Shown: positions 13,910-58,751 of the stretch, piece by piece
Position numbering within the stretch: position 1 is the first letter of the stretch
Layout: the number at the start of each line of letters is the position of its first letter
Source: an uncultured Allomuricauda sp.
Lineage (GTDB): Bacteria > Bacteroidota > Bacteroidia > Flavobacteriales > Flavobacteriaceae
Direction of reading: 5' to 3'
Assembly (NCBI GenBank): GCA_937899065.1
Contig: CALBPG010000074.1
Coordinates: 7,612-71,611, forward strand
Length of the DNA: 64,000 nt
Notes under the pieces: generated by a model
Databases searched by the model: none
What the model was told of the DNA's origin: nothing
The model's input: the letters and a program-made list of their open reading frames with translations, nothing else
Program-made: the position numbers and the translations under genes

Positions 13910-16807
13910 TTACCCGGTTTTCGTTTTGCTTCGCCGTATAAATAGGAAGGCCAAAACCGTACCGGCAATTACAATCAATCCAAACCATAGATAATTCCAA
14001 CTATTTGGAAAGTCAATAGGGGTGGCTTGCCCATGATGTATGAATCCGGCCCAATAAAAAGGGTGTTGTAGTTTGGGATTGGAAGTGGTATTCAGATATG
14101 TTCTTTTTGCCGCTTGAAGGGCCTCCGCAGTATTTTGGCCAGCACGGAGTTGTTCGTAAAAGCTGACCATGATGCTTTTGCTGTTTTCGTCCGGAACAGA
14201 CCAGATGGTCGAAATCGTGTTAGGGACGCCGGCATATAAAAAAGCATTGTTCAGGGAAATTACACCCTTTCCAGTTTCAAATTTTCCAAGCCCCGTATCG
14301 CAGGCACTCAGCACCACCAAGTCTGCTTTCAACTTTAGTGCGTAGAGCTCAGACAAGTACAAAGGGCCATCATCAAACATCAAGCTACTGAACTCAGGAA
14401 CCTCATTATTGAGGAAAGCGTGCATGGCCAAATGGATAACCTTTTTTTCTGAAATATTTTCCAGAAAGTTTGACTTGGAAGCATCCTTGCCCGAAAAAGA
14501 AATACCCCTAGTCAATTGGGTAACTTCCATCCCTTCTTGCAAAGCACCTTTTAAAGTTTGGAAATCATTTCGTAAAGCCAACTGCTGTTCGGTAGCATTG
14601 ACTTCCCTGTAGGATGGTGTAAAGACAACAGCCATCGCCCCATTGGAAGTTTGATAACTTCTCTGAAAACTTAAAAAAGGAATACTTGAAGCGTAATTTA
14701 TTGAGGTTTGCTCAACCAAATAAGTGCCGTTATGCACTAAAGTCTCGAAGGGCAAATAGTTTAAAACCTTATCCGGAATGATAGTCAAGGATTTGTAGCT
14801 ATTAGTATTTGAAATACCCAAAGTAGTATATAACTGTTCGCCTTTTTCTTGCAGTTGGTTTAGATTGGAGGTTGGGTCACTAAGCAGTTTGAGGTATGTG
14901 GTGACATCTCTTTGAATAGCACCATAATTTCCTAAATCAATGGTCTGCATTCCGCTTTCGGAAAAGAGAAATAGATACAGTCGTTGCCCGAGTTGTGCAT
15001 ATTGACCGATGGTTTGATTGGAAGTGATTTTGCTTTTAAAATCCTCAAGGTCGAAAGCATATTTTTCAAAATAGCGGAAGGAATTGTAGCGGTTTTCGAT
15101 GATATTCTGAACATTTGCGAGACGTTCCTTATTGGTGGTCAAAGCATCTGAAATACCTTCTGACTGGCCAAGACTGTCTGAAAGTTGAAGGTTGAGTACG
15201 GTGGTGTTTAACTTGTTTTCCAACCGCAATAGAGAATCTGGAATTGTGAAAGCCTCACTGTTCCGATTCCGAAGAAAGTTATGCCATAAAAACTTGGACT
15301 TAAAGTTCACCAAGCTTTCCAAGGCCATCTGGTTGTCTACGGGCTCGTTGGATGCCAAAATACCAGAAATGATACGATCAAAAATGATTTCAAGCTTTTC
15401 GGTATACAATTGCTTTCGATAGCTGTTCGTAAACTGGCGCAGCGCAATTTTGAAAGCATGGTTTGCAGCAATTGATATATGGGTGTTGCCCTTCTCCTCC
15501 GAATTGGCCAAAGCCTGTGCAAGTTTGGCCAATTTAATGGCATCGTTGAGTCGCGTAGAAGGGATATACTCCTCTACAATTTTTGAATCGGTCAATCCAT
15601 TTTGTATTGGACTATTTGAAAAACGAGCTATGGCTGCATTGGCATCTTCCAATAACTTTTCGGGTTGGTTTTTAGCGGCCCAAATTCCTGCTCTCGATAC
15701 ATAAAGAAACCCCTGGAGCTGTCTAGGCAATTGGGATTCCAGCATAGCGAAGGTGCTTAGGGCCTCATCATAATCACCAATGCCTTTTTTAGCTTTGGCC
15801 GAGTTGAGCAAAAAATAATTGCGATAGACGGTAAAGGCATTCTCTGGCATCAAGGCCACGGCTGATTCTAGATGAACTAAAGCTTTTTCAGGTTGGTCAA
15901 TATCCAGATAATAAAGGCCGGCTTCATTATAGCAGTTCGCGTGATAGTACTGTGCCCGTTTGGAGAGTTCTTTTCCTGCGACGTAGGTATCTGCCTTTGT
16001 TAAGGTAGCCAGGAGTTGCGCTTCATCACCAGTATGGGAATATAATTTGGCTTCGGTTGAGATTAAATCCAGCGGATACGCATATTCATTCTGGGTCTGT
16101 TTTTCAGCCTTCCTAAAGTAAGCAGCGTTTTTTTCGTAAACGTGCTCCACCCGACCCAAGTAGTACTGCGCTCTCGGATAAAAACCATAACGAATAAGGT
16201 TTTTTGCGAAACCAATTTGGAGGCTCGAGAGCATGTTTTCATCATAGGATTCGGTCAACCCATCGTAAATTGAAAATACTTCTTCGTAGTCATCCAACAC
16301 ATCTTCACCTGCACCCAAATCACTTAAAATGGCAATTTTCGTCAGCAAAAGTTGGGCATAGGACTCATCCGGTGTGGAATAGTACGTATTCCAAGTATCT
16401 ATGGCCTTGTCCATGTAAAGTAAGGCGCTGGTTGGATTTCGTGCGAAATCTTTTAGGTCGGAAGCATATTCGAAATAGCTATTGATTAAACTAGTGGTGT
16501 CAAGCGGATTCTGGTTCTCAAAAACTTCAATTTTCTTTTCGAGATAGGTTTTGCGTTTAGAAGCATCTTTGGTAAGCCTTAAAAAAGTCGTGCGATACTT
16601 GGCTAACAATTTGCCCTTATTCACTTGGTTCTGTTCTTCCTTTATAGAATGGAATAAAACATCTGCTGCTTTCTCGGGTTCTACTTTCTTTAAGGAATCT
16701 ACCTGTTGTAAAACGGCTTGTGGTAATTCTTGGGAAGTCCCTTGATACTGAAAAATCCCTAAGCACATCAAAATAGATGTGAAAAGGGTAACGTTGGTTT
16801 TGAACAT
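13910..16807 (-). CDS. TPR-CHAT caspase-like protease with N-terminal signal peptide and C-terminal membrane anchor
   Basis: CHAT motifs LTIIPDKVLNYLPFETL, IHLAMH (His), LVVLSACDTG (Cys), HPFYWAGF; TPR-like helices in N-half; C-terminal TM YLWFGLIVIAGTVLAFLFI then RRSKTK. Confidence 0.92.
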   Translation of the reverse strand: MFKTNVTLFTSILMCLGIFQYQGTSQELPQAVLQQVDSLKKVEPEKAADVLFHSIKEEQNQVNKGKLLAKYRTTFLRLTKDASKRKTYLEKKIEVFENQNPLDTTSLINSYFEYASDLKDFARNPTSALLYMDKAIDTWNTYYSTPDESYAQLLLTKIAILSDLGAGEDVLDDYEEVFSIYDGLTESYDENMLSSLQIGFAKNLIRYGFYPRAQYYLGRVEHVYEKNAAYFRKAEKQTQNEYAYPLDLISTEAKLYSHTGDEAQLLATLTKADTYVAGKELSKRAQYYHANCYNEAGLYYLDIDQPEKALVHLESAVALMPENAFTVYRNYFLLNSAKAKKGIGDYDEALSTFAMLESQLPRQLQGFLYVSRAGIWAAKNQPEKLLEDANAAIARFSNSPIQNGLTDSKIVEEYIPSTRLNDAIKLAKLAQALANSEEKGNTHISIAANHAFKIALRQFTNSYRKQLYTEKLEIIFDRIISGILASNEPVDNQMALESLVNFKSKFLWHNFLRNRNSEAFTIPDSLLRLENKLNTTVLNLQLSDSLGQSEGISDALTTNKERLANVQNIIENRYNSFRYFEKYAFDLEDFKSKITSNQTIGQYAQLGQRLYLFLFSESGMQTIDLGNYGAIQRDVTTYLKLLSDPTSNLNQLQEKGEQLYTTLGISNTNSYKSLTIIPDKVLNYLPFETLVHNGTYLVEQTSINYASSIPFLSFQRSYQTSNGAMAVVFTPSYREVNATEQQLALRNDFQTLKGALQEGMEVTQLTRGISFSGKDASKSNFLENISEKKVIHLAMHAFLNNEVPEFSSLMFDDGPLYLSELYALKLKADLVVLSACDTGLGKFETGKGVISLNNAFLYAGVPNTISTIWSVPDENSKSIMVSFYEQLRAGQNTAEALQAAKRTYLNTTSNPKLQHPFYWAGFIHHGQATPIDFPNSWNYLWFGLIVIAGTVLAFLFIRRSKTKTG

Positions 16808-53000: not shown

Positions 53001-53360
53001 ATGGTACAACGTGTTTTAATAACAAAAGCAGCGGAGCGGGTCGTTCAATCCTTAAAGGAAGAACATGGCCCGCTCATGTTTCATCAAAGTGGGGGTTGTT
53101 GCGATGGTAGTTCTCCCATGTGTTTTCCCAAAGGGGAATTGATGACGAATGATACGGATGTACTGTTGGGTGAAGTCGCTGGTTGCGAATTTTATATGTC
53201 GAAAGACCAGTTTGATTATTGGAAACATACCCAACTGACTATGGATGTGGTTAATGGAAGAGGTTCTAGCTTTTCATTGGAAATTCCGTTGGGATTGCGA
53301 TTTGTGATAAAGTCAAGAATGTTTACTGAAAAGGAATTGGAGGTGTTAAAGACGCATTAG
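53001..53360 (+). CDS. DUF779 family protein
   Basis: MFHQSGGCCDGSSPMC, WKHTQLT.DVV.GRGSSFSLE. Confidence 0.9.
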   Translation: MVQRVLITKAAERVVQSLKEEHGPLMFHQSGGCCDGSSPMCFPKGELMTNDTDVLLGEVAGCEFYMSKDQFDYWKHTQLTMDVVNGRGSSFSLEIPLGLRFVIKSRMFTEKELEVLKTH

Positions 53361-54424: not shown

Positions 54425-54835
54425 ATGAAAAAGTGGAATGTTTGGTTTGTTTTACTCCTACTGGGAAGTTTGTCCCAGGGTATACAAGCGCAACAATCCC
54501 ACTTTTCTATGAATGGTCCAAAGTTTTATCAAATGTTGGCTGAACGCGATGCGGTATATGAGCGCACATTAGGAAACATGTCAGCCAAAGATGAAACCGA
54601 CTATTGGAAAGACCAGGAAGCTTACGAAAAACTTTTATCAGAGCAACATCCTCAAGCTTATGCTTGGTACATCACTAAAAAGAAAGCAATGTACCAAGAA
54701 CATTACATCGCTTGCGAGGTGTTTTGTGTAAATAGTCTCACATACTGGTCTAAGGTGAAACACTACCTAGAAGTTCCTACCGAAATCAAGTTATTTGAGC
54801 TAAGCCCATCTTTGAGCTTGGTGAGTTCGAAATAA
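54425..54835 (+). CDS. Secreted hypothetical protein
   Basis: Signal peptide; DETDYWKDQ..YE. Confidence 0.65.
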   Translation: MKKWNVWFVLLLLGSLSQGIQAQQSHFSMNGPKFYQMLAERDAVYERTLGNMSAKDETDYWKDQEAYEKLLSEQHPQAYAWYITKKKAMYQEHYIACEVFCVNSLTYWSKVKHYLEVPTEIKLFELSPSLSLVSSK

Positions 54836-54846
54836 TCGGGGGTAGA

Positions 54847-55005
54847 TTAAGCAACCTTTTTGAACAAATCGTAACAGGGACAACGCTTACAGCGTTTGTT
54901 TTCTCCCTTTTTATACTTTTTGCAGCACTTGGTTTTACACTTACCATTGGGCAGCTCTCTTACGGAGCCTTTCAATTTTTTGGAAGCACTTTTCTTTTTG
55001 CCCAT
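54847..55005 (-). CDS. Unannotated 52-aa Lys/Cys-rich protein with C-C-x10-C-x2-C motif
   Basis: Manual translation MGKKKSASKKLKGSVRELPNGKCKTKCCKKYKKGENKRCKRCPCYDLFKKVA*; promoter-like TATCTTTA upstream; below the track length cut-off. Confidence 0.75.
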   Translation of the reverse strand: MGKKKSASKKLKGSVRELPNGKCKTKCCKKYKKGENKRCKRCPCYDLFKKVA

Positions 55006-55034
55006 GGGTTAGATTTGGGCATAAAGATAATTGT

Positions 55035-55050
55035 TTTAAATTAATCTAAA
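55035..55050. promoter_or_regulatory. AT-rich dyad TTTAAATTAATCTAAA, Fur-box-like
   Basis: Near-palindrome between ferritin stop and small ORF promoter; resembles flavobacterial ATTTAGA..TCTAAAT boxes as recalled. Confidence 0.45.
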
Positions 55051-55065
55051 TAAACAAATAGCAGG

Positions 55066-55590
55066 TTACGCTTCACCCATAGTGTCCGATGCAGCACTTT
55101 CAACATTGATTTGTTGCACGTCCCTATCGAACAAATAAAGCCCACCTTTGTCATTTCCGATAAGGATGCTTTTATCCAGAATGGTTCGTGCCAAGGCTTC
55201 TTCTTCAATCTGCTCCGCCACATACCACTGCAAAAAGTTATGGGTTGCATAATCCTTTTCTTCCAAGGTGACATGAACTAAATCGTTGATGCTATTAGAA
55301 ACAAAAAGCTCGTGTTGGTATAGTTCTTCGAACATTTTCTGGAACGAACCAAAATCGGTTTTTGGAGCTTTCAATTGAGAAATCTGAGCATGTCCACCAC
55401 GCTCATTCACATACTTGATAAGTTTAAGCATATGCATACGCTCCTCATCTGAATGACCATACATAAAGCCGGCGATACCTTCAAGACCTTTAACTTCAGC
55501 CCATGATGCCATGGATAAATACACTTGTGAGGATTCAGCCTCTATTTTGATTTGATTATTTAGGGCCTTTTCAAGCTTCTTTGATAACAT
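55066..55590 (-). CDS. ftnA: Non-heme ferritin
   Basis: LNNQIKIEAESSQVYLSMASW, EERMHMLKL, HELFVS, FLQWYVAEQIEEE ferroxidase pattern. Confidence 0.93.
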   Translation of the reverse strand: MLSKKLEKALNNQIKIEAESSQVYLSMASWAEVKGLEGIAGFMYGHSDEERMHMLKLIKYVNERGGHAQISQLKAPKTDFGSFQKMFEELYQHELFVSNSINDLVHVTLEEKDYATHNFLQWYVAEQIEEEALARTILDKSILIGNDKGGLYLFDRDVQQINVESAASDTMGEA

Positions 55591-55629
55591 ACTTCAATTT
55601 TTAACAAAGTTACGAATATTGGTAGGACC

Positions 55630-56532
55630 CTAAAAGTAGACTTCCTGCGCTATTCGAAAGGTGTTGGCATGGGCTTGAATGATGGTTTTGATTTCGGGCG
55701 AGTACCCACCACCCATGCTGCATTGCACTGGTATATTAAGTGCCTTGCATTGATTTAGAACATAGTTATCACGCTGTTTGCACCCCTCTAGAGACATGCC
55801 CAAGGTGCCTAATTTATCGGTTTCCAAAATGTCTACTCCACAGAGGTAAAAAATAAAGTCAGGTTGTACTTGGGCTATCAATTTGGGAAAGGCATTGTGC
55901 AAGAGAGATAGGTATTCAGCGTCAGTAGTACCTTTTTCCAAAGGAATGTCCCAGTCAGATTGCTCTTTTTTGAACGGATAGTTACCCTTTCCGTGCATGG
56001 AAAAGGTAAAAACCGAGGATTGGTTGGCAAAGATTTCTGCAGTACCATTGCCCTGATGTACGTCCAAATCCAAGATAAGAATGCGCTCTGCTAGTGCATT
56101 GTTCAAAAGATAGTTGGCCGCGATGGCTTGATCATTGAGCATACAAAAAGCTTCGCCCCGATTGGTGTAAGCATGATGGGTACCCCCAGCGATGTTCATG
56201 GCAATACCGTGCTCCATCGCAAAATGACATCCTTTAATGGTGCCATCTGCGATAATATGTTCCCGTTCTACCAGAGCCGCGCTTAACGGAAAACCTATTT
56301 TCCGCTGTTCGCTGGGTTTTAGCGTAAGTTGGGTAAGGTTTTGATAATAGCCTTTATCGTGGGTATTCAGAATGTCCTGAATATTGGGATATTCTGGTTC
56401 AAAGAAATTAACCGGTTCACAAGTCCCTTCGTGTAGGAGCTGCTTGGGTAGCAAATCATATTTTTCCATGGGAAACCGGTGCCCTTCAGGTAGGGGATGA
56501 CGGTAAATGGGATGATAGGCTATTTTGAGCAA
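55630..56532 (-). CDS. Histone deacetylase family protein
   Basis: HRFPMEKY, AGGTHHA, GEAFCMLND, DLDVHQGNGT, GVD..D.LG, GGGY; TTG start. Confidence 0.92.
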   Translation of the reverse strand: MLKIAYHPIYRHPLPEGHRFPMEKYDLLPKQLLHEGTCEPVNFFEPEYPNIQDILNTHDKGYYQNLTQLTLKPSEQRKIGFPLSAALVEREHIIADGTIKGCHFAMEHGIAMNIAGGTHHAYTNRGEAFCMLNDQAIAANYLLNNALAERILILDLDVHQGNGTAEIFANQSSVFTFSMHGKGNYPFKKEQSDWDIPLEKGTTDAEYLSLLHNAFPKLIAQVQPDFIFYLCGVDILETDKLGTLGMSLEGCKQRDNYVLNQCKALNIPVQCSMGGGYSPEIKTIIQAHANTFRIAQEVYF

Positions 56533-56610: not shown

Positions 56611-58692
56611 TTAATTGATGGTTGCTCCGTTTTCCGGAGTCTCCTCATCTGGGTTCACAAATACCAATTTCCCCTCAGCGTTTTCGGTCATTAAAATCAT
56701 GCCTTCACTCTCTACACCGCGCAGTTTTCTAGGCGCTAAATTGACCAAAACCGTAACTTTTTTACCCACAATCTCCTCAGGTTTGAAACTTTCCGCGATT
56801 CCGGAAACGATGGTTCGGGTATCGATACCGGTATCCACCTTTAGCACAAGCAGTTTATTGGCTTTGGGCATTTTTTCTGCCTCCAAAATAGTGCCTACAC
56901 GTAGGTCTAGTTTGGTAAAATCATCAAAGGTTATGGTTTCTTTTTGAGGGGTTACACTCTTTTCCATTTGCGCATTCGCTTGTTTGGTGGCTTCGAGTTT
57001 ATCGAGCTGTTTTTGAATTTCGGCATCTTCAATTTTGCGGAAAAGCAATTCCGCAGGATTGATTTGGTGACCAGAAGGAATCAAAACATCTTGGGAAGAG
57101 ACGGAATTCCATGAAATTTCGGCTTCGCCTGAAAGCTTTTTAGTGTTCAATATCTGCTTCAGCTTTTTCGAAGTAAAGGGCAAAAACGGCTCACTAAGTG
57201 CTGCAAGTCCAGCAGCCAACTGTAAGGCCACATACATGATAGTTTTGACCCGTTCCTCATCGGTTTTTATAAGTTTCCAGGGCTCAGCATCGGCCAAGTA
57301 TTTATTGCCCAATCTGGCCAAGTTGAGCAATTCTTGACTTGCTTCTCGAAAGCGATAGCGGTTTAAGGAATTGGCAAGTGTTTCTGGATACCCTTTTAAG
57401 GCATCGAGTACTTGTTGGTCGACTTCCGAAAGCGTGTTGGGTTCAGGGATGATTCCACCGTAATATTTATGCGTAAGCACAACCACACGATTGATAAAAT
57501 TTCCAAAAATCGCAACTAGTTCATTATTGTTTCTTGCTTGAAAATCTTTCCAAGTAAAATCGTTGTCTTTGGTTTCGGGAGCATTTGCAGTCAACACATA
57601 CCGCAGGACATCTTGCATGTCTGGGAACTCCTCCAAGTATTCATGTAGCCAAACCGCCCAGTTTTTTGAAGTGGATAGCTTGTTGCCTTCCAGATTCAAA
57701 AACTCGTTTGCGGGCACATTTTGCGGTAAAACGTAGTCCCCATGGGCTTTGAGCATGCTTGGGAAGATGATACAGTGGAACACGATATTATCTTTTCCAA
57801 TAAAGTGGAGCAGTCGGGTATTTTCATCCTTCCAATACGGTTCCCAATCTTTTTCTTCGCGTTCGGCCCACTCTTTAGTAGAAGAGATATACCCGATTGG
57901 GGCATCAAACCAAACATAAAGCACTTTTCCTTCTGCATCTGCCACAGGAACAGGGATACCCCAATCCAAATCACGGGTCACGGCCCGAGGTTTCAACCCA
58001 TCATCAATCCACGATTTGCATTGACCGTACACATTGGGTTTCCAGTCGCTTTGATGGCCCTCGATAATCCATTCTTTTAAAAAGCTTTCGTATCTATCCA
58101 AAGGCAAAAACCAGTGCTTGGTTCGCTTCAAAGTTGGCGTGCTACCACTTAAAGTAGACTTTGGATTGATTAAATCGGTAGCATTCAAAGAAGAACCACA
58201 GTTTTCACATTGGTCACCGTACGCTTCTTCATAACCACATTTAGGGCAAGTTCCCGTTACAAAACGGTCGGCGAGGAACTGATGGGCCTCACTATCGTAG
58301 AGCTGTTCAGTTACTTCTTCGATAAAATCATCTTGTTCATATAGCTTTTTGAAAAAATCTGAAGCGGTTTCGTGATGCACGGCTGCGGATGTACGAGAAT
58401 AGTTGTCAAATGAAATCCCAAAATCCGAAAAGGCTTGTTTGATGATGCCATGATACTTATCAATAATCACTTGAGGACTCACTCCTTCTTTTTTGGCCTT
58501 CATCGGTATGGCCACACCATGTTCATCACTACCGCAAATGAAAATCACATCCTTGCCAATTCCTCTAAGGAAGCGGGCATAGATATCCGCAGGAACGTAA
58601 ACTCCAGCCAAATGCCCAATATGAATGGGGCCATTGGTGTAGGGCAAAGCAGCAGTTAGGGTATAGCGAGATGGTGTTGCCGTTTGGGTCAT
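56611..58692 (-). CDS. metG: Methionine--tRNA ligase
   Basis: [12 protein letters not shown], Zn knuckle [24 protein letters not shown]-terminal tRNA-binding domain. Confidence 0.98.
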
Positions 58693-58751
58693 ACAAAGCA
58701 AAATTAAGCAGCAAAAATACAGAATTTCGGTCTAGAACCTTGGCAGGCTAT

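What the first reader, a model, noticed from the sequence alone, without database searches (positions are those of the whole stretch)
54847..55590. Hidden 52-aa FhuF-motif microprotein directly downstream of ferritin
Seen: a clean ORF missed by the track, on the ferritin strand, starting 60 nt after the ferritin stop. It has six Cys including C27-C28-x10-C39-x2-C42 and is very Lys-rich. Established: C-C-x10-C-x2-C is the [2Fe-2S] ligand motif of the ferric-siderophore reductase FhuF, and bacterioferritins use a small basic [2Fe-2S] protein (Bfd) to release iron. Inference: a minimal ferredoxin acting as a Bfd analogue for FtnA-type ferritin, for which no dedicated partner is established; alternatively a metallothionein-like metal buffer.
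Basis: partly seen in the sequence, partly recalled or inferred. Interest (0 to 1): 0.7.

Follow-up and report, generated by a model that had tools for sequence, protein, structure and literature searches.

The report
Iron-regulated cysteine microprotein beside ferritin
A real, strongly conserved 52-residue, lysine-rich, four-cysteine protein sits just after the ferritin gene in most Flavobacteriaceae, behind its own promoter with a Fur-type iron-regulator site, which makes it a testable candidate for the unknown partner that releases iron from non-heme bacterial ferritin.

Summary
The ORF is real. It lies at 54847-55005 (-), 60 nt after ferritin (55066-55590), and has Cys at 23, 27, 28, 39, 42 and 44.

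It belongs to an uncharacterised family with at least 520 clusters. All are small stand-alone proteins of Flavobacteriaceae, with no Pfam domain, named "hypothetical" where annotated.

Purifying selection is clear: codon positions 1/2/3 differ by 0.15/0.13/0.52. Family-wide, only CC-x(8/10/11)-C-x2-C-P...D is invariant. C23 and C44 are not, but 260 of 267 members keep one of them.

Ferritin lies directly upstream in 62 of 80 species, while the other neighbours change.

New here: the gene has its own Bacteroidetes-type promoter overlapped by a near-invariant palindrome. That palindrome matches the Riemerella Fur box and a palindrome found beside fur, iron-uptake, suf, rubrerythrin and katG genes.

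The likeness to FhuF is only at motif level. Weak, in-register hits occur to the cluster loop, but no homology can be shown.

Best reading (about 0.38): an iron-starvation-induced metalloprotein that docks on acidic ferritin and mobilises its iron, as Bfd does for bacterioferritin. The cofactor, expression and ferritin binding are untested.

Main rival: an Fbp-like basic RNA chaperone.

The parts
55066..55590 (-). Non-heme (Ftn-type) ferritin gene, 174 aa, acidic (pI 5.0, net charge about -11 per subunit), no Cys.
   Evidence: PF00210, E 1e-38. Best NCBIfam model is non-heme ferritin NF007638, E 1e-40, below its cut-off. pI and charge.
55605..55612 (-). Putative Bacteroidetes -7 promoter element (TAACTTTG = TAnnTTTG) of the ferritin gene, 14 nt before its ATG. 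No Fur-like box lies here.
   Evidence: Read from the sequence. No match with up to 5 mismatches to the Fur-family palindrome in this interval. The TAnnTTTG consensus is from memory and is mentioned in PMC5609570.
55031..55053 (-). Conserved 23-nt near-palindrome TTATTTAGATTAATTTAAAACAA. Its core, 55033-55051 (ATTTAGATTAATTTAAAAC), is a Fur-family box-like operator that overlaps the -33 region and spacer of the microprotein promoter.
   Evidence: Unique in the 64-kb window. Present about 50-60 nt before the start codon in 77 of 80 species loci, with 15 of 23 positions invariant or nearly so. Has 1-3 mismatches to ATTTAGAWTNAWTCTAAAT in 82 loci. Best match in the window. Riemerella Fur box is ATTTAGAATTATTCTAAAT. 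Perfect palindromes lie beside Fur/PerR-regulon genes.
55022..55029 (-). Putative -7 promoter element of the microprotein gene (TATCTTTA; TATTTTTG in most relatives), leaving a leader of about 10-15 nt.
   Evidence: Aligned upstream regions. Position read. No transcription start mapping is available.
54847..55005 (-). Microprotein gene, 52 aa. It has an N-terminal Lys-rich variable tail (residues 1-21), a conserved metal-binding core, and an invariant C-terminal ...DL(L/F)KKVA.
54868..54942 (-). Codons 22-46, the conserved core K-C-K-T-K-C-C-K-K-Y-K-K-G-E-N-K-R-C-K-R-C-P-C-Y-D. Family-invariant positions are C27, C28, C39, C42, P43 and D46, with an aromatic residue at 31.
   Evidence: Alignments A1 and A3. 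Statistics on 267 sequences. In-register weak matches to the FhuF-type cluster loop.

Best explanation
The ORF is a real gene for a small metalloprotein of iron homeostasis.

Shown:
- It is conserved, under purifying selection, and limited to Flavobacteriaceae.
- It keeps an invariant CC-x(8-11)-C-x2-C-P...D core behind a variable poly-lysine tail.
- It usually lies directly after the non-heme ferritin gene.
- It has its own promoter, overlapped by a near-invariant palindrome that matches a Fur-family operator.

Inferred:
- When iron is plentiful, Fur-Fe2+ sits on the box and keeps the gene off, while ferritin is made from its own promoter.
- When iron runs short, the box is freed and the microprotein is made. 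Where it directly follows ferritin without its own promoter, as in some Flavobacterium, it is made by read-through.
- Its four invariant cysteines, which lie in one loop as in FhuF, hold a redox-active iron centre: a [2Fe-2S] cluster or a single Fe(Cys)4 site.
- The +16 charged protein docks on the acidic, Cys-free ferritin shell.
- It passes electrons to the stored ferric mineral so that Fe2+ is released. The electrons would ultimately come from NADPH through a TrxR-like ferredoxin-NADP reductase such as the one at 21-1082.

In function this makes it an analogue of the Bfd/bacterioferritin pair, built on a different and much smaller scaffold.
For: Real gene:
- Codon-position differences of 0.15/0.13/0.52, with synonymous codons at all invariant residues.
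- At least 520 clusters and at least 176 species.

Metal site:
- CC, CxxC-P and D are invariant in 267 sequences, with an aromatic residue at CC+3.
- The FhuF structure shows that this motif holds a [2Fe-2S] cluster within one loop, with the adjacent Cys on different Fe atoms.
- The only consistent hit among the NCBIfam models is that loop of TIGR03950 (30 of 31 and 14 of 25 members, best E 0.002).
- hhalign aligns only FhuF residues 241-260, in register, P 0.0023.

Ferritin link:
- Ferritin lies directly upstream on the same strand in 62 of 80 species, while the gene before ferritin varies (HDAC 13, metG 12, other 37).
- The same pairing occurs in Flavobacterium glycines and F. amniphilum (16-nt gap, no separate promoter) and in a divergent CPM-type member.
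- Charges are complementary, +16 against -11 per subunit.

Iron regulation:
- The conserved palindrome is unique in the window and is the best Fur-box-like site in 64 kb.
- It has 1-3 mismatches to the consensus in 82 loci.
- Riemerella Fur box with EMSA support: PMC5609570.
- Perfect copies of the palindrome flank FUR, Fe3+-binding proteins, TonB receptors, SufB/SufE, rubrerythrin, KatG, AhpC and Dps genes.
- bfd is likewise Fur-controlled (PMC12363616).

A second iron-related context occurs in the Gramella type: Mrp-NifU-FNR-like-ferredoxin and a heme-oxygenase-like gene.
Against: - There is no experimental or expression evidence of any kind. No RNA runs were found.
- Homology to FhuF is not significant. 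The spacer varies between 8, 10 and 11 residues.
- A Cys4 site could equally hold Zn.
- The partner ferritin has no heme, so the Bfd route (cluster to heme to core) cannot apply. No route for electrons through a non-heme shell is known.
- 18 of 80 species, plus the Gramella and Aequorivita types, keep the gene without an adjacent ferritin.
- All carriers belong to one family, so part of the adjacency may be inherited gene order.
- The box could belong to PerR rather than Fur, because its perfect copies also flank peroxide-stress genes.
- The structure model is uninformative, pLDDT 56.
Confidence: 0.38

Rival explanations
1. A nucleic-acid chaperone of the iron-sparing response, like the Fur-regulated small basic proteins FbpA, FbpB and FbpC of Bacillus subtilis. 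The Lys-rich tail and a structural Zn (or Fe) knuckle would bind RNA and help to down-regulate iron-rich proteins when iron is scarce. On this view, the position next to ferritin would be regulatory convenience or inherited gene order.
For: - Same size class, extreme basicity (pI 10.1) and a predicted Fur-family operator.
- The Fbp proteins are 29-54 aa, basic, Fur-regulated and predicted to be RNA chaperones (PMC10730256).
- The gene persists where ferritin is not adjacent.
- A Cys4 knuckle plus a basic tail resembles retroviral nucleocapsid zinc knuckles (from memory).
Against: - The ferritin adjacency is the most conserved feature of the locus. In some Flavobacterium the gene has no promoter of its own and must be co-transcribed with ferritin.
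- No iron-sparing sRNA is known in Bacteroidetes (from memory).
- The in-register likeness to the FhuF cluster loop is unexplained by this reading.
Confidence: 0.2
2. A metallochaperone or metal buffer. The thiolate site would bind Fe2+ (or Zn or Cu) without redox chemistry. It would take up iron leaving ferritin, or deliver iron to ferritin or to Fe-S assembly. This covers the first reader's 'metallothionein-like' alternative.
For: - Four invariant Cys plus a fifth in 97% of members.
- Neighbours are ferritin in most genomes, and the Mrp/NifU Fe-S carriers in the Gramella type.
- Adjacent Cys can bind one metal ion, as in desulforedoxin and Cox17 (from memory).
Against: - One site per 52 residues gives little buffering capacity.
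- Only 4 of 52 residues are invariant Cys, unlike metallothioneins.
- No metallothionein or chaperone family matched.
- Induction at low iron, if the Fur box is real, does not fit a detoxifying buffer.
Confidence: 0.12
3. A peroxide-stress protein. On this reading the palindrome is a PerR-type box rather than a Fur box. The microprotein would be induced with ferritin or Dps under oxidative stress, as a thiol or redox switch or a protective partner of ferritin.
For: - Perfect copies of the palindrome in metagenomes also flank rubrerythrin, KatG, AhpC and Dps genes and Fur-family regulator genes.
- CC and CxxC motifs can form disulfides.
- Ferritin is an oxidative-stress gene in Bacteroides (from memory).
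Against: - In the one tested member of the order Flavobacteriales (Riemerella), this sequence is the Fur box and Fur binds such promoters.
- The same palindrome flanks Fe3+ transport, TonB receptor and suf genes.
- The ferritin promoter itself lacks the box.
Confidence: 0.1
4. The function is unrelated to ferritin. It would be a small basic Zn-knuckle protein, for example nucleoid- or ribosome-associated or self-regulating, whose position after ferritin is only gene order inherited within one family.
For: - All carriers are Flavobacteriaceae, so the loci are not independent.
- An ancestral block Tex-HDAC-PAP2-ferritin-microprotein-ssb is visible.
- The gene stays in place when ferritin is lost.
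- The operator is found nowhere else in about 700 kb of related loci, as a self-regulated gene would show.
Against: - The pair outlasts every other adjacency (62 of 80, against ssb in 29 of 80 and HDAC or metG in 25 of 62).
- It spans Flavobacterium to Flagellimonas.
- Its operator belongs to an iron/peroxide regulon motif.
- A second, different context is also iron-related.
Confidence: 0.12

Closest known systems
Bfd, the bacterioferritin-associated [2Fe-2S] ferredoxin (Pfam BFD-like [2Fe-2S] binding domain)
   Same: A small protein encoded next to a ferritin-family gene, with four Cys ligands. It is under, or here predicted to be under, Fur-type control with a promoter separate from the storage protein. 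Its proposed role is to release stored iron at low iron.
   Different: No sequence or motif relation, and no Pfam hit. Bfd uses a different Cys pattern (C-x-C...C-x2-C, from memory) and passes electrons to the heme of bacterioferritin. The partner here is a non-heme ferritin without Cys. The protein here is shorter and far more basic.
C-terminal [2Fe-2S] loop of ferric-siderophore reductases (FhuF, PDB 7QP5; TIGR03950/TIGR03951; Pfam FhuF_C)
   Same: C-C-x10-C-x2-C with an aromatic residue three positions after CC: micro KCCKKYKKGENKRCKRC against FhuF TCCQRYRLPDVQQCGDC. Weak matches are consistent and in register. In FhuF all four ligands lie in one loop, so a stand-alone loop peptide is conceivable.
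   Different: There is no significant homology and no N-terminal siderophore-binding domain. The spacer is 8 or 11 in some subclades. CxxC is always followed by Pro, where E. coli FhuF has Thr. It stands alone in all 44 representative clusters found among 1.84 billion proteins.
FbpA, FbpB and FbpC, the Fur-regulated basic proteins of Bacillus subtilis
   Same: Proteins under 60 aa, very basic and Fur-regulated (predicted here), tied to the low-iron response.
   Different: The Fbp proteins are thought to act on RNA together with the sRNA FsrA. They are not linked to ferritin and are not defined by a Cys4 motif.
Desulforedoxin/rubredoxin-type Fe(Cys)4 centres
   Same: A very small protein in which an adjacent CC pair plus a CxxC pair could bind a single Fe, as in the desulforedoxin motif C-x2-C...C-C (from memory).
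   Different: The motif order is reversed. No family match was found. Those proteins are not Lys-rich and are not linked to ferritin.

Membership tests
FhuF / ferric-siderophore reductase (FSR) family | Cluster motif C-C-x10-C-x2-C | tested here: met
   The window protein has C27-C28-x10-C39-x2-C42. 231 of 267 family members have x10, 19 have x8 and 17 have x11.
FhuF / ferric-siderophore reductase (FSR) family | Significant match to the family models (Pfam FhuF_C PF11575, TIGR03950/TIGR03951) or to the FhuF sequence | tested here: not met
   No Pfam hit at E<=10 for 31 members. TIGR03950 scores 10-11 bits against a cut-off of 137.9, best E 0.002. hhalign probability is 12.7%. No PDB hit. No FSR-sized protein appeared in the exhaustive profile search.
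FhuF / ferric-siderophore reductase (FSR) family | N-terminal siderophore-synthetase-like ('palm') domain, Pfam PF06276 | tested here: not met
   The protein is 52 aa and family members are 38-127 aa. FhuF homologues carry PF06276 plus PF11575. None of the microproteins do.
FhuF / ferric-siderophore reductase (FSR) family | Binds a [2Fe-2S] cluster | not testable with these tools
   This needs UV-vis, EPR or Moessbauer spectra of purified protein. The AlphaFold model is of low confidence and carries no metal.
Bfd (bacterioferritin-associated ferredoxin) | BFD-like [2Fe-2S] binding domain | tested here: not met
   No Pfam family matched at E<=1 or at E<=10 across 31 members.
Bfd (bacterioferritin-associated ferredoxin) | Encoded next to the gene of its ferritin-family partner | tested here: met
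   Ferritin lies directly upstream in the window and in 62 of 80 species. It is also upstream in Flavobacterium.
Bfd (bacterioferritin-associated ferredoxin) | The partner is a heme-containing bacterioferritin | tested here: not met
   The best NCBIfam model for the partner is non-heme ferritin NF007638, E 1e-40. Bfrs are the heme-containing ferritins.
Bfd (bacterioferritin-associated ferredoxin) | Fur-controlled, expressed at low iron | tested here: inconclusive
   A Fur-family box-like palindrome overlaps the promoter. No expression data exist, and PerR is not excluded.
Fbp (Fur-regulated basic proteins, B. subtilis) | Under 60 aa, strongly basic, Fur-regulated | tested here: inconclusive
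   Size and charge are met. Fur control is predicted from the operator only.
Fbp (Fur-regulated basic proteins, B. subtilis) | Sequence relation to FbpA, FbpB or FbpC; action with an sRNA | not tested
   No Fbp sequences or models were at hand. No named family apart from TIGR03950 matched.
Metallothionein | High Cys content in C-x-C / C-C clusters that bind several metal ions | tested here: not met
   6 of 52 residues are Cys, and only 4 are invariant. No metallothionein family matched.

The most novel reading that the evidence does not exclude
This would be the first dedicated iron-release partner of a non-heme bacterial ferritin. It would be a minimal ferredoxin made of little more than a FhuF-type [2Fe-2S] loop and a poly-lysine docking tail. 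It would be switched on by Fur at low iron and would reduce the ferritin core without a heme relay. A variant reading is that it marks ferritin for opening or for degradation.
Probability: 0.22. Interest if true: 0.85.

Novelty: new variant of a known kind. Interest (0 to 1): 0.62.

Why it matters
How bacteria recover iron from ordinary non-heme ferritin is poorly understood. The one well-described case is bacterioferritin with Bfd. This finding offers a concrete, widespread and easily cloned candidate in Flavobacteriaceae, an abundant group of marine and soil bacteria.

If the protein holds an iron-sulfur cluster, it would be among the smallest ferredoxins. It would also show that the unusual FhuF ligand loop, with adjacent cysteines on different iron atoms, can work as an independent module.

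If it instead acts on RNA, it would be the first Fbp-like iron-sparing factor outside the Firmicutes. Either way, it would add a member to the little-known Fur regulon of Bacteroidetes.

Tried and rejected
- Pfam scans of the protein and of 31 homologues found no consistent family.
- A profile search of PDB sequences gave only one chance hit.
- An exhaustive profile search of 1.84 billion representatives found only small stand-alone relatives. It also returned some spurious repeat translations (NRCTDCPCFDLL... units, P0069 and others).
- AlphaFold2 with the 31-sequence alignment gave pLDDT 56 and pTM 0.22. The model was too poor for a fold search, so none was run.
- No RNA-seq evidence was found.
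- The exact Riemerella Fur consensus, without degenerate positions, gave no hit with up to 3 mismatches in the window. With W at the two variable positions, the microprotein site has 3 mismatches.
- FhuF homologues were collected to build a better profile of the loop. Their C-termini are nearly identical, so no better comparison was possible.
- Rfam gave nothing relevant.
- Other palindrome-like hits in related loci turned out to lie inside the Tex coding region.
- A ribosomal-protein or zinc-starvation (Zur) reading was considered and dropped. The operator resembles Fur/PerR boxes, and a Cys4 protein induced at low zinc makes little sense.
Full report
1. Observation

The ORF lies at window 54847..55005 on the minus strand. 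It encodes MGKKKSASKKLKGSVRELPNGKCKTKCCKKYKKGENKRCKRCPCYDLFKKVA. Cys lie at 23, 27, 28, 39, 42 and 44. The protein has 17 Lys and 3 Arg, pI 10.1 and net charge about +16.

The gene before it on the same strand, 55066..55590, is a ferritin (PF00210, E 1e-38). Its best NCBIfam model is non-heme ferritin. The gap between the two genes is 60 nt. Further upstream on the same strand lie an HDAC-family gene (55630..56532) and metG (56611..58701). Downstream, a convergent 136-aa secreted protein ends 11 nt from the microprotein stop.

2. It is a real gene

- A sequence search found 60 close homologues. A profile of divergent members found at least 520 clusters at 90% identity.
- Where named, all are from Flavobacteriaceae: Flagellimonas/Allomuricauda, Maribacter, Algibacter, Winogradskyella, Formosa, Flavobacterium, Gramella, Aequorivita and others. 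All are called hypothetical and none has a Pfam domain.
- At least 176 GTDB species genomes encode it.
- In 70 orthologues, the 29-codon core differs pairwise by 0.15, 0.13 and 0.52 at codon positions 1, 2 and 3. Every invariant residue is written with several synonymous codons.
- The start codon is ATG in 37 loci, TTG in 28 and GTG in 12, always followed by GKKK. This fixes the start and shows selection on the protein rather than on the DNA.
- No transcript data exist for this organism.

3. Anatomy of the family

Statistics come from 267 distinct sequences (alignments).

- The N-terminal 20-40 residues are variable but always Lys-rich.
- The core is invariant in CC, C-x2-C-P (267 of 267) and an Asp four residues later (266 of 267).
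- An aromatic residue sits three positions after CC (Y 194, F 72, H 1).
- The CC-to-C spacer is 10 in 231 sequences, 8 in 19 and 11 in 17.
- C23 and C44 of the window protein are not invariant. However, 260 of 267 sequences keep at least one of the two (141 only C44, 55 only C23, 64 both).
- In the 70 orthologues with the standard core, the C-terminus is (K/Q)(K/N/Q/R)VA, most often KKVA.

An exhaustive HMMER search of 1.84 billion representative proteins with the core profile gave 44 clusters. All true relatives were stand-alone proteins of 45-127 aa. None was a domain of a larger protein.

4. Relation to FhuF

The motif C-C-x10-C-x2-C is the [2Fe-2S] site of FhuF. In the crystal structure (7QP5) all four ligands lie in one loop, and the adjacent Cys bind different Fe atoms (bioRxiv 10.1101/2023.07.04.547673).

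The E. coli FhuF C-terminus is RRTCCQRYRLPDVQQCGDCTLK. The microprotein core is KTKCCKKYKKGENKRCKRCPCY. Spacing and the aromatic residue after CC are shared.

Tests for homology gave the following.
- Pfam found nothing, even at E<=10.
- PDB sequences gave nothing.
- hhalign of the core profile against FhuF aligned only residues 241-260, in register, with P 0.0023 but probability 12.7%.
- Among 18,950 NCBIfam models, the only one hit consistently was the last 20-22 positions of TIGR03950, a siderophore ferric reductase. It was hit by 30 of 31 close members and 14 of 25 divergent members, best E 0.002, at about 10 bits against a cut-off of 138.

So the likeness goes somewhat beyond four cysteines, but it is a motif-level likeness. 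The protein is not a member of the FhuF family.

5. Linkage to ferritin

- In 80 species loci, ferritin lies directly upstream on the same strand in 62. The median distance from the last aligned ferritin codon to the microprotein start is 83 nt.
- The gene before ferritin is HDAC in 13 loci, metG in 12 and something else in 37. The convergent ssb lies within 1.5 kb in only 29.
- The pair also occurs in Flavobacterium glycines and F. amniphilum. In F. amniphilum the gap is 16 nt with no separate promoter, so the two genes must be co-transcribed.
- It also occurs in a divergent 'CPM' type member.

Exceptions exist.
- A Flagellimonas subgroup has HDAC-PAP2-microprotein. The order HDAC-PAP2-ferritin-microprotein in another genome shows that ferritin was lost there.
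- Aequorivita has HDAC-microprotein with a 1-nt gap.
- Gramella-type genomes place it beside Mrp-NifU-(TrxR-like FNR)-ferredoxin, divergent from a heme-oxygenase-like gene.

The link to ferritin is therefore strong but not obligatory. All the evidence comes from one bacterial family.

6. A conserved operator (new)

Aligned upstream regions show a near-invariant element, TTATTTAGATTnAwTwAAAATAA. It is followed by TAnnTTTG, the Bacteroidetes -7 promoter box, and lies about 50-60 nt before the start codon in 77 of 80 loci. This includes loci without ferritin.

In the window the element is at 55031-55053, with the -7 box at 55022-55029. It occurs nowhere else in the 64 kb, and nowhere else in the related loci apart from its own reverse strand.

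The element is a near-palindrome. The Fur box proposed for Riemerella anatipestifer (order Flavobacteriales) is ATTTAGAATTATTCTAAAT, and promoters with it are bound by Fur in EMSA (PMC5609570).

I tested the meaning of the palindrome independently. Exact copies of ATTTAGAWTNAWTCTAAAT in metagenome contigs are flanked by these gene families:
- FUR-family regulators (4)
- rubrerythrin (3)
- Fe3+ ABC binding proteins (3)
- ferritin-like or Dps (3)
- KatG (2)
- AhpC (2)
- TonB-receptor plug (2)
- SufB/D (2)
- SufE (1)

This is a Fur/PerR-type regulon.

The microprotein promoters match this consensus with 1 mismatch in 7 loci, 2 in 60 and 3 in 14. The window site (55033-55051, 3 mismatches) is the best match in the window. 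The next best has 4 mismatches, and hits with 5 occur at chance frequency. The ferritin promoter (TAACTTTG at 55605-55612) has no such site.

The microprotein is therefore very probably under a Fur-family repressor, separately from ferritin. This is the pattern known for bfd and bfr.

7. Mechanism

Shown: a conserved, basic, four-Cys microprotein; adjacency to an acidic, Cys-free, non-heme ferritin (pI 5.0, -11 per subunit); and a Fur-family box over its promoter.

Inferred: at low iron the gene is derepressed. The CC...CxxC loop holds a redox-active iron centre, either [2Fe-2S] as in FhuF or a single Fe as in desulforedoxin-type sites. The Lys tail docks on the ferritin shell. Electrons from NADPH, through a TrxR-like FNR, reach the mineral and release Fe2+. 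Such an FNR, a 353-aa Pyr_redox_2 protein, is encoded at 21-1082, and the same gene lies next to the microprotein in Gramella-type genomes.

I give this 0.38. Its weak points are these.
- There is no cofactor or expression evidence.
- There is no heme relay in this ferritin, so the Bfd route cannot be copied.
- The loop length varies.
- Some genomes lack the adjacent ferritin.
- The operator could be a PerR box.

8. Rivals

- (a) An Fbp-like RNA chaperone of an iron-sparing response. B. subtilis FbpA, FbpB and FbpC are 29-54 aa, basic and Fur-regulated (PMC10730256). Confidence 0.20.
- (b) A non-redox iron or zinc chaperone or buffer. Confidence 0.12.
- (c) A PerR-controlled peroxide-stress thiol protein. 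Confidence 0.10.
- (d) A function unrelated to ferritin, with inherited gene order. Confidence 0.12.

The metallothionein idea is weak, because only 4 of 52 residues are invariant Cys and no such family matched.

9. Novelty and verdict

The family is uncharacterised and has no Pfam model. I found no paper on it, although the literature searches here were limited and not aimed at this protein.

It is not a member of the FhuF, Bfd or metallothionein families. By function it is best seen as a new variant of the 'ferritin-associated small iron-sulfur protein' theme, or alternatively of the 'Fur-regulated basic protein' theme.

The finding stands as an observation. Its interpretation is plausible and is now backed by regulatory evidence, but it remains unproven. 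It makes the open question of iron release from non-heme bacterial ferritin directly testable with simple experiments.

Noticed in passing
window 54874-54876 (C44) and 54937-54939 (C23); family-wide: A fifth cysteine is kept on an either/or basis. Of 267 family members, 141 have it only two residues after CxxC, 55 have it only four residues before CC, 64 have both and 7 have neither. This suggests a functionally needed extra thiol that can come from either flank. Relatedness of the sequences was not corrected for.
   Followed up: partly
window 55003-55005 and loci L001-L080: About half of the orthologues start with TTG or GTG instead of ATG, always followed by GKKK. This may mean weak or regulated translation initiation.
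   Followed up: partly
window 54850-54861 (last four codons, KKVA): The C-terminus ...DL(L/F)KKVA is almost invariant in the main clade. It resembles the MuA-type C-terminal ClpX recognition signal (RRKKAI, from memory). That could mean controlled turnover or an adaptor role.
   Followed up: no
window 55630-56532 (-); L079, L088, L213: An HDAC-family (lysine deacetylase-like) gene is often close by. The order is HDAC-(PAP2)-ferritin-microprotein, and in Aequorivita HDAC is followed directly by the microprotein with a 1-nt gap. A very Lys-rich protein next to a deacetylase-family enzyme may be more than inherited gene order.
   Followed up: partly
L086:96-114; L086, L090, L091: In Gramella-type genomes the microprotein lies beside Mrp/ApbC-NifU-TrxR-like FNR-ferredoxin, divergent from a heme-oxygenase-like gene (PF11251). 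A Fur-box-like site with 2 mismatches lies 48 nt before the Mrp start. These members lack the Lys-rich N-terminus and the conserved promoter element.
   Followed up: partly
window 54425-54835 (+) and 54882-54896, 54954-54968 (+): A convergent 136-aa signal-peptide protein with no Pfam domain ends 11 nt from the microprotein stop. Two terminator-like hairpins for that + strand gene lie inside the microprotein coding region, so the two transcripts probably overlap.
   Followed up: no
P0069, P0074, P0075, P0084, P0091, P0093, P0095, P0097, P0099: Predicted proteins of 96-235 aa are made of units of about 30 residues...NRCTDCPCFDLLAASIRKSGLEI.... They matched the core profile only at RC..CPCFDL. 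They look like translations of a tandem DNA repeat, not relatives of the microprotein.
   Followed up: no
P0061: One 66-aa metagenome protein joins an H-NOX-like N-terminus (PF07700) to the microprotein core. It is probably a miscalled start or a chimeric contig of 959 nt.
   Followed up: no
window 13967-13985: This is the second-best match in the window to the Fur-family palindrome (AATTACAATCAATCCAAAC, 4 mismatches). The neighbouring genes were not examined.
   Followed up: no
window 53001-53360 (+): A DUF779 protein (E 3e-47) with a GGCC motif lies 1.5 kb downstream. It is not linked to the microprotein in other genomes beyond the closest relatives.
   Followed up: no
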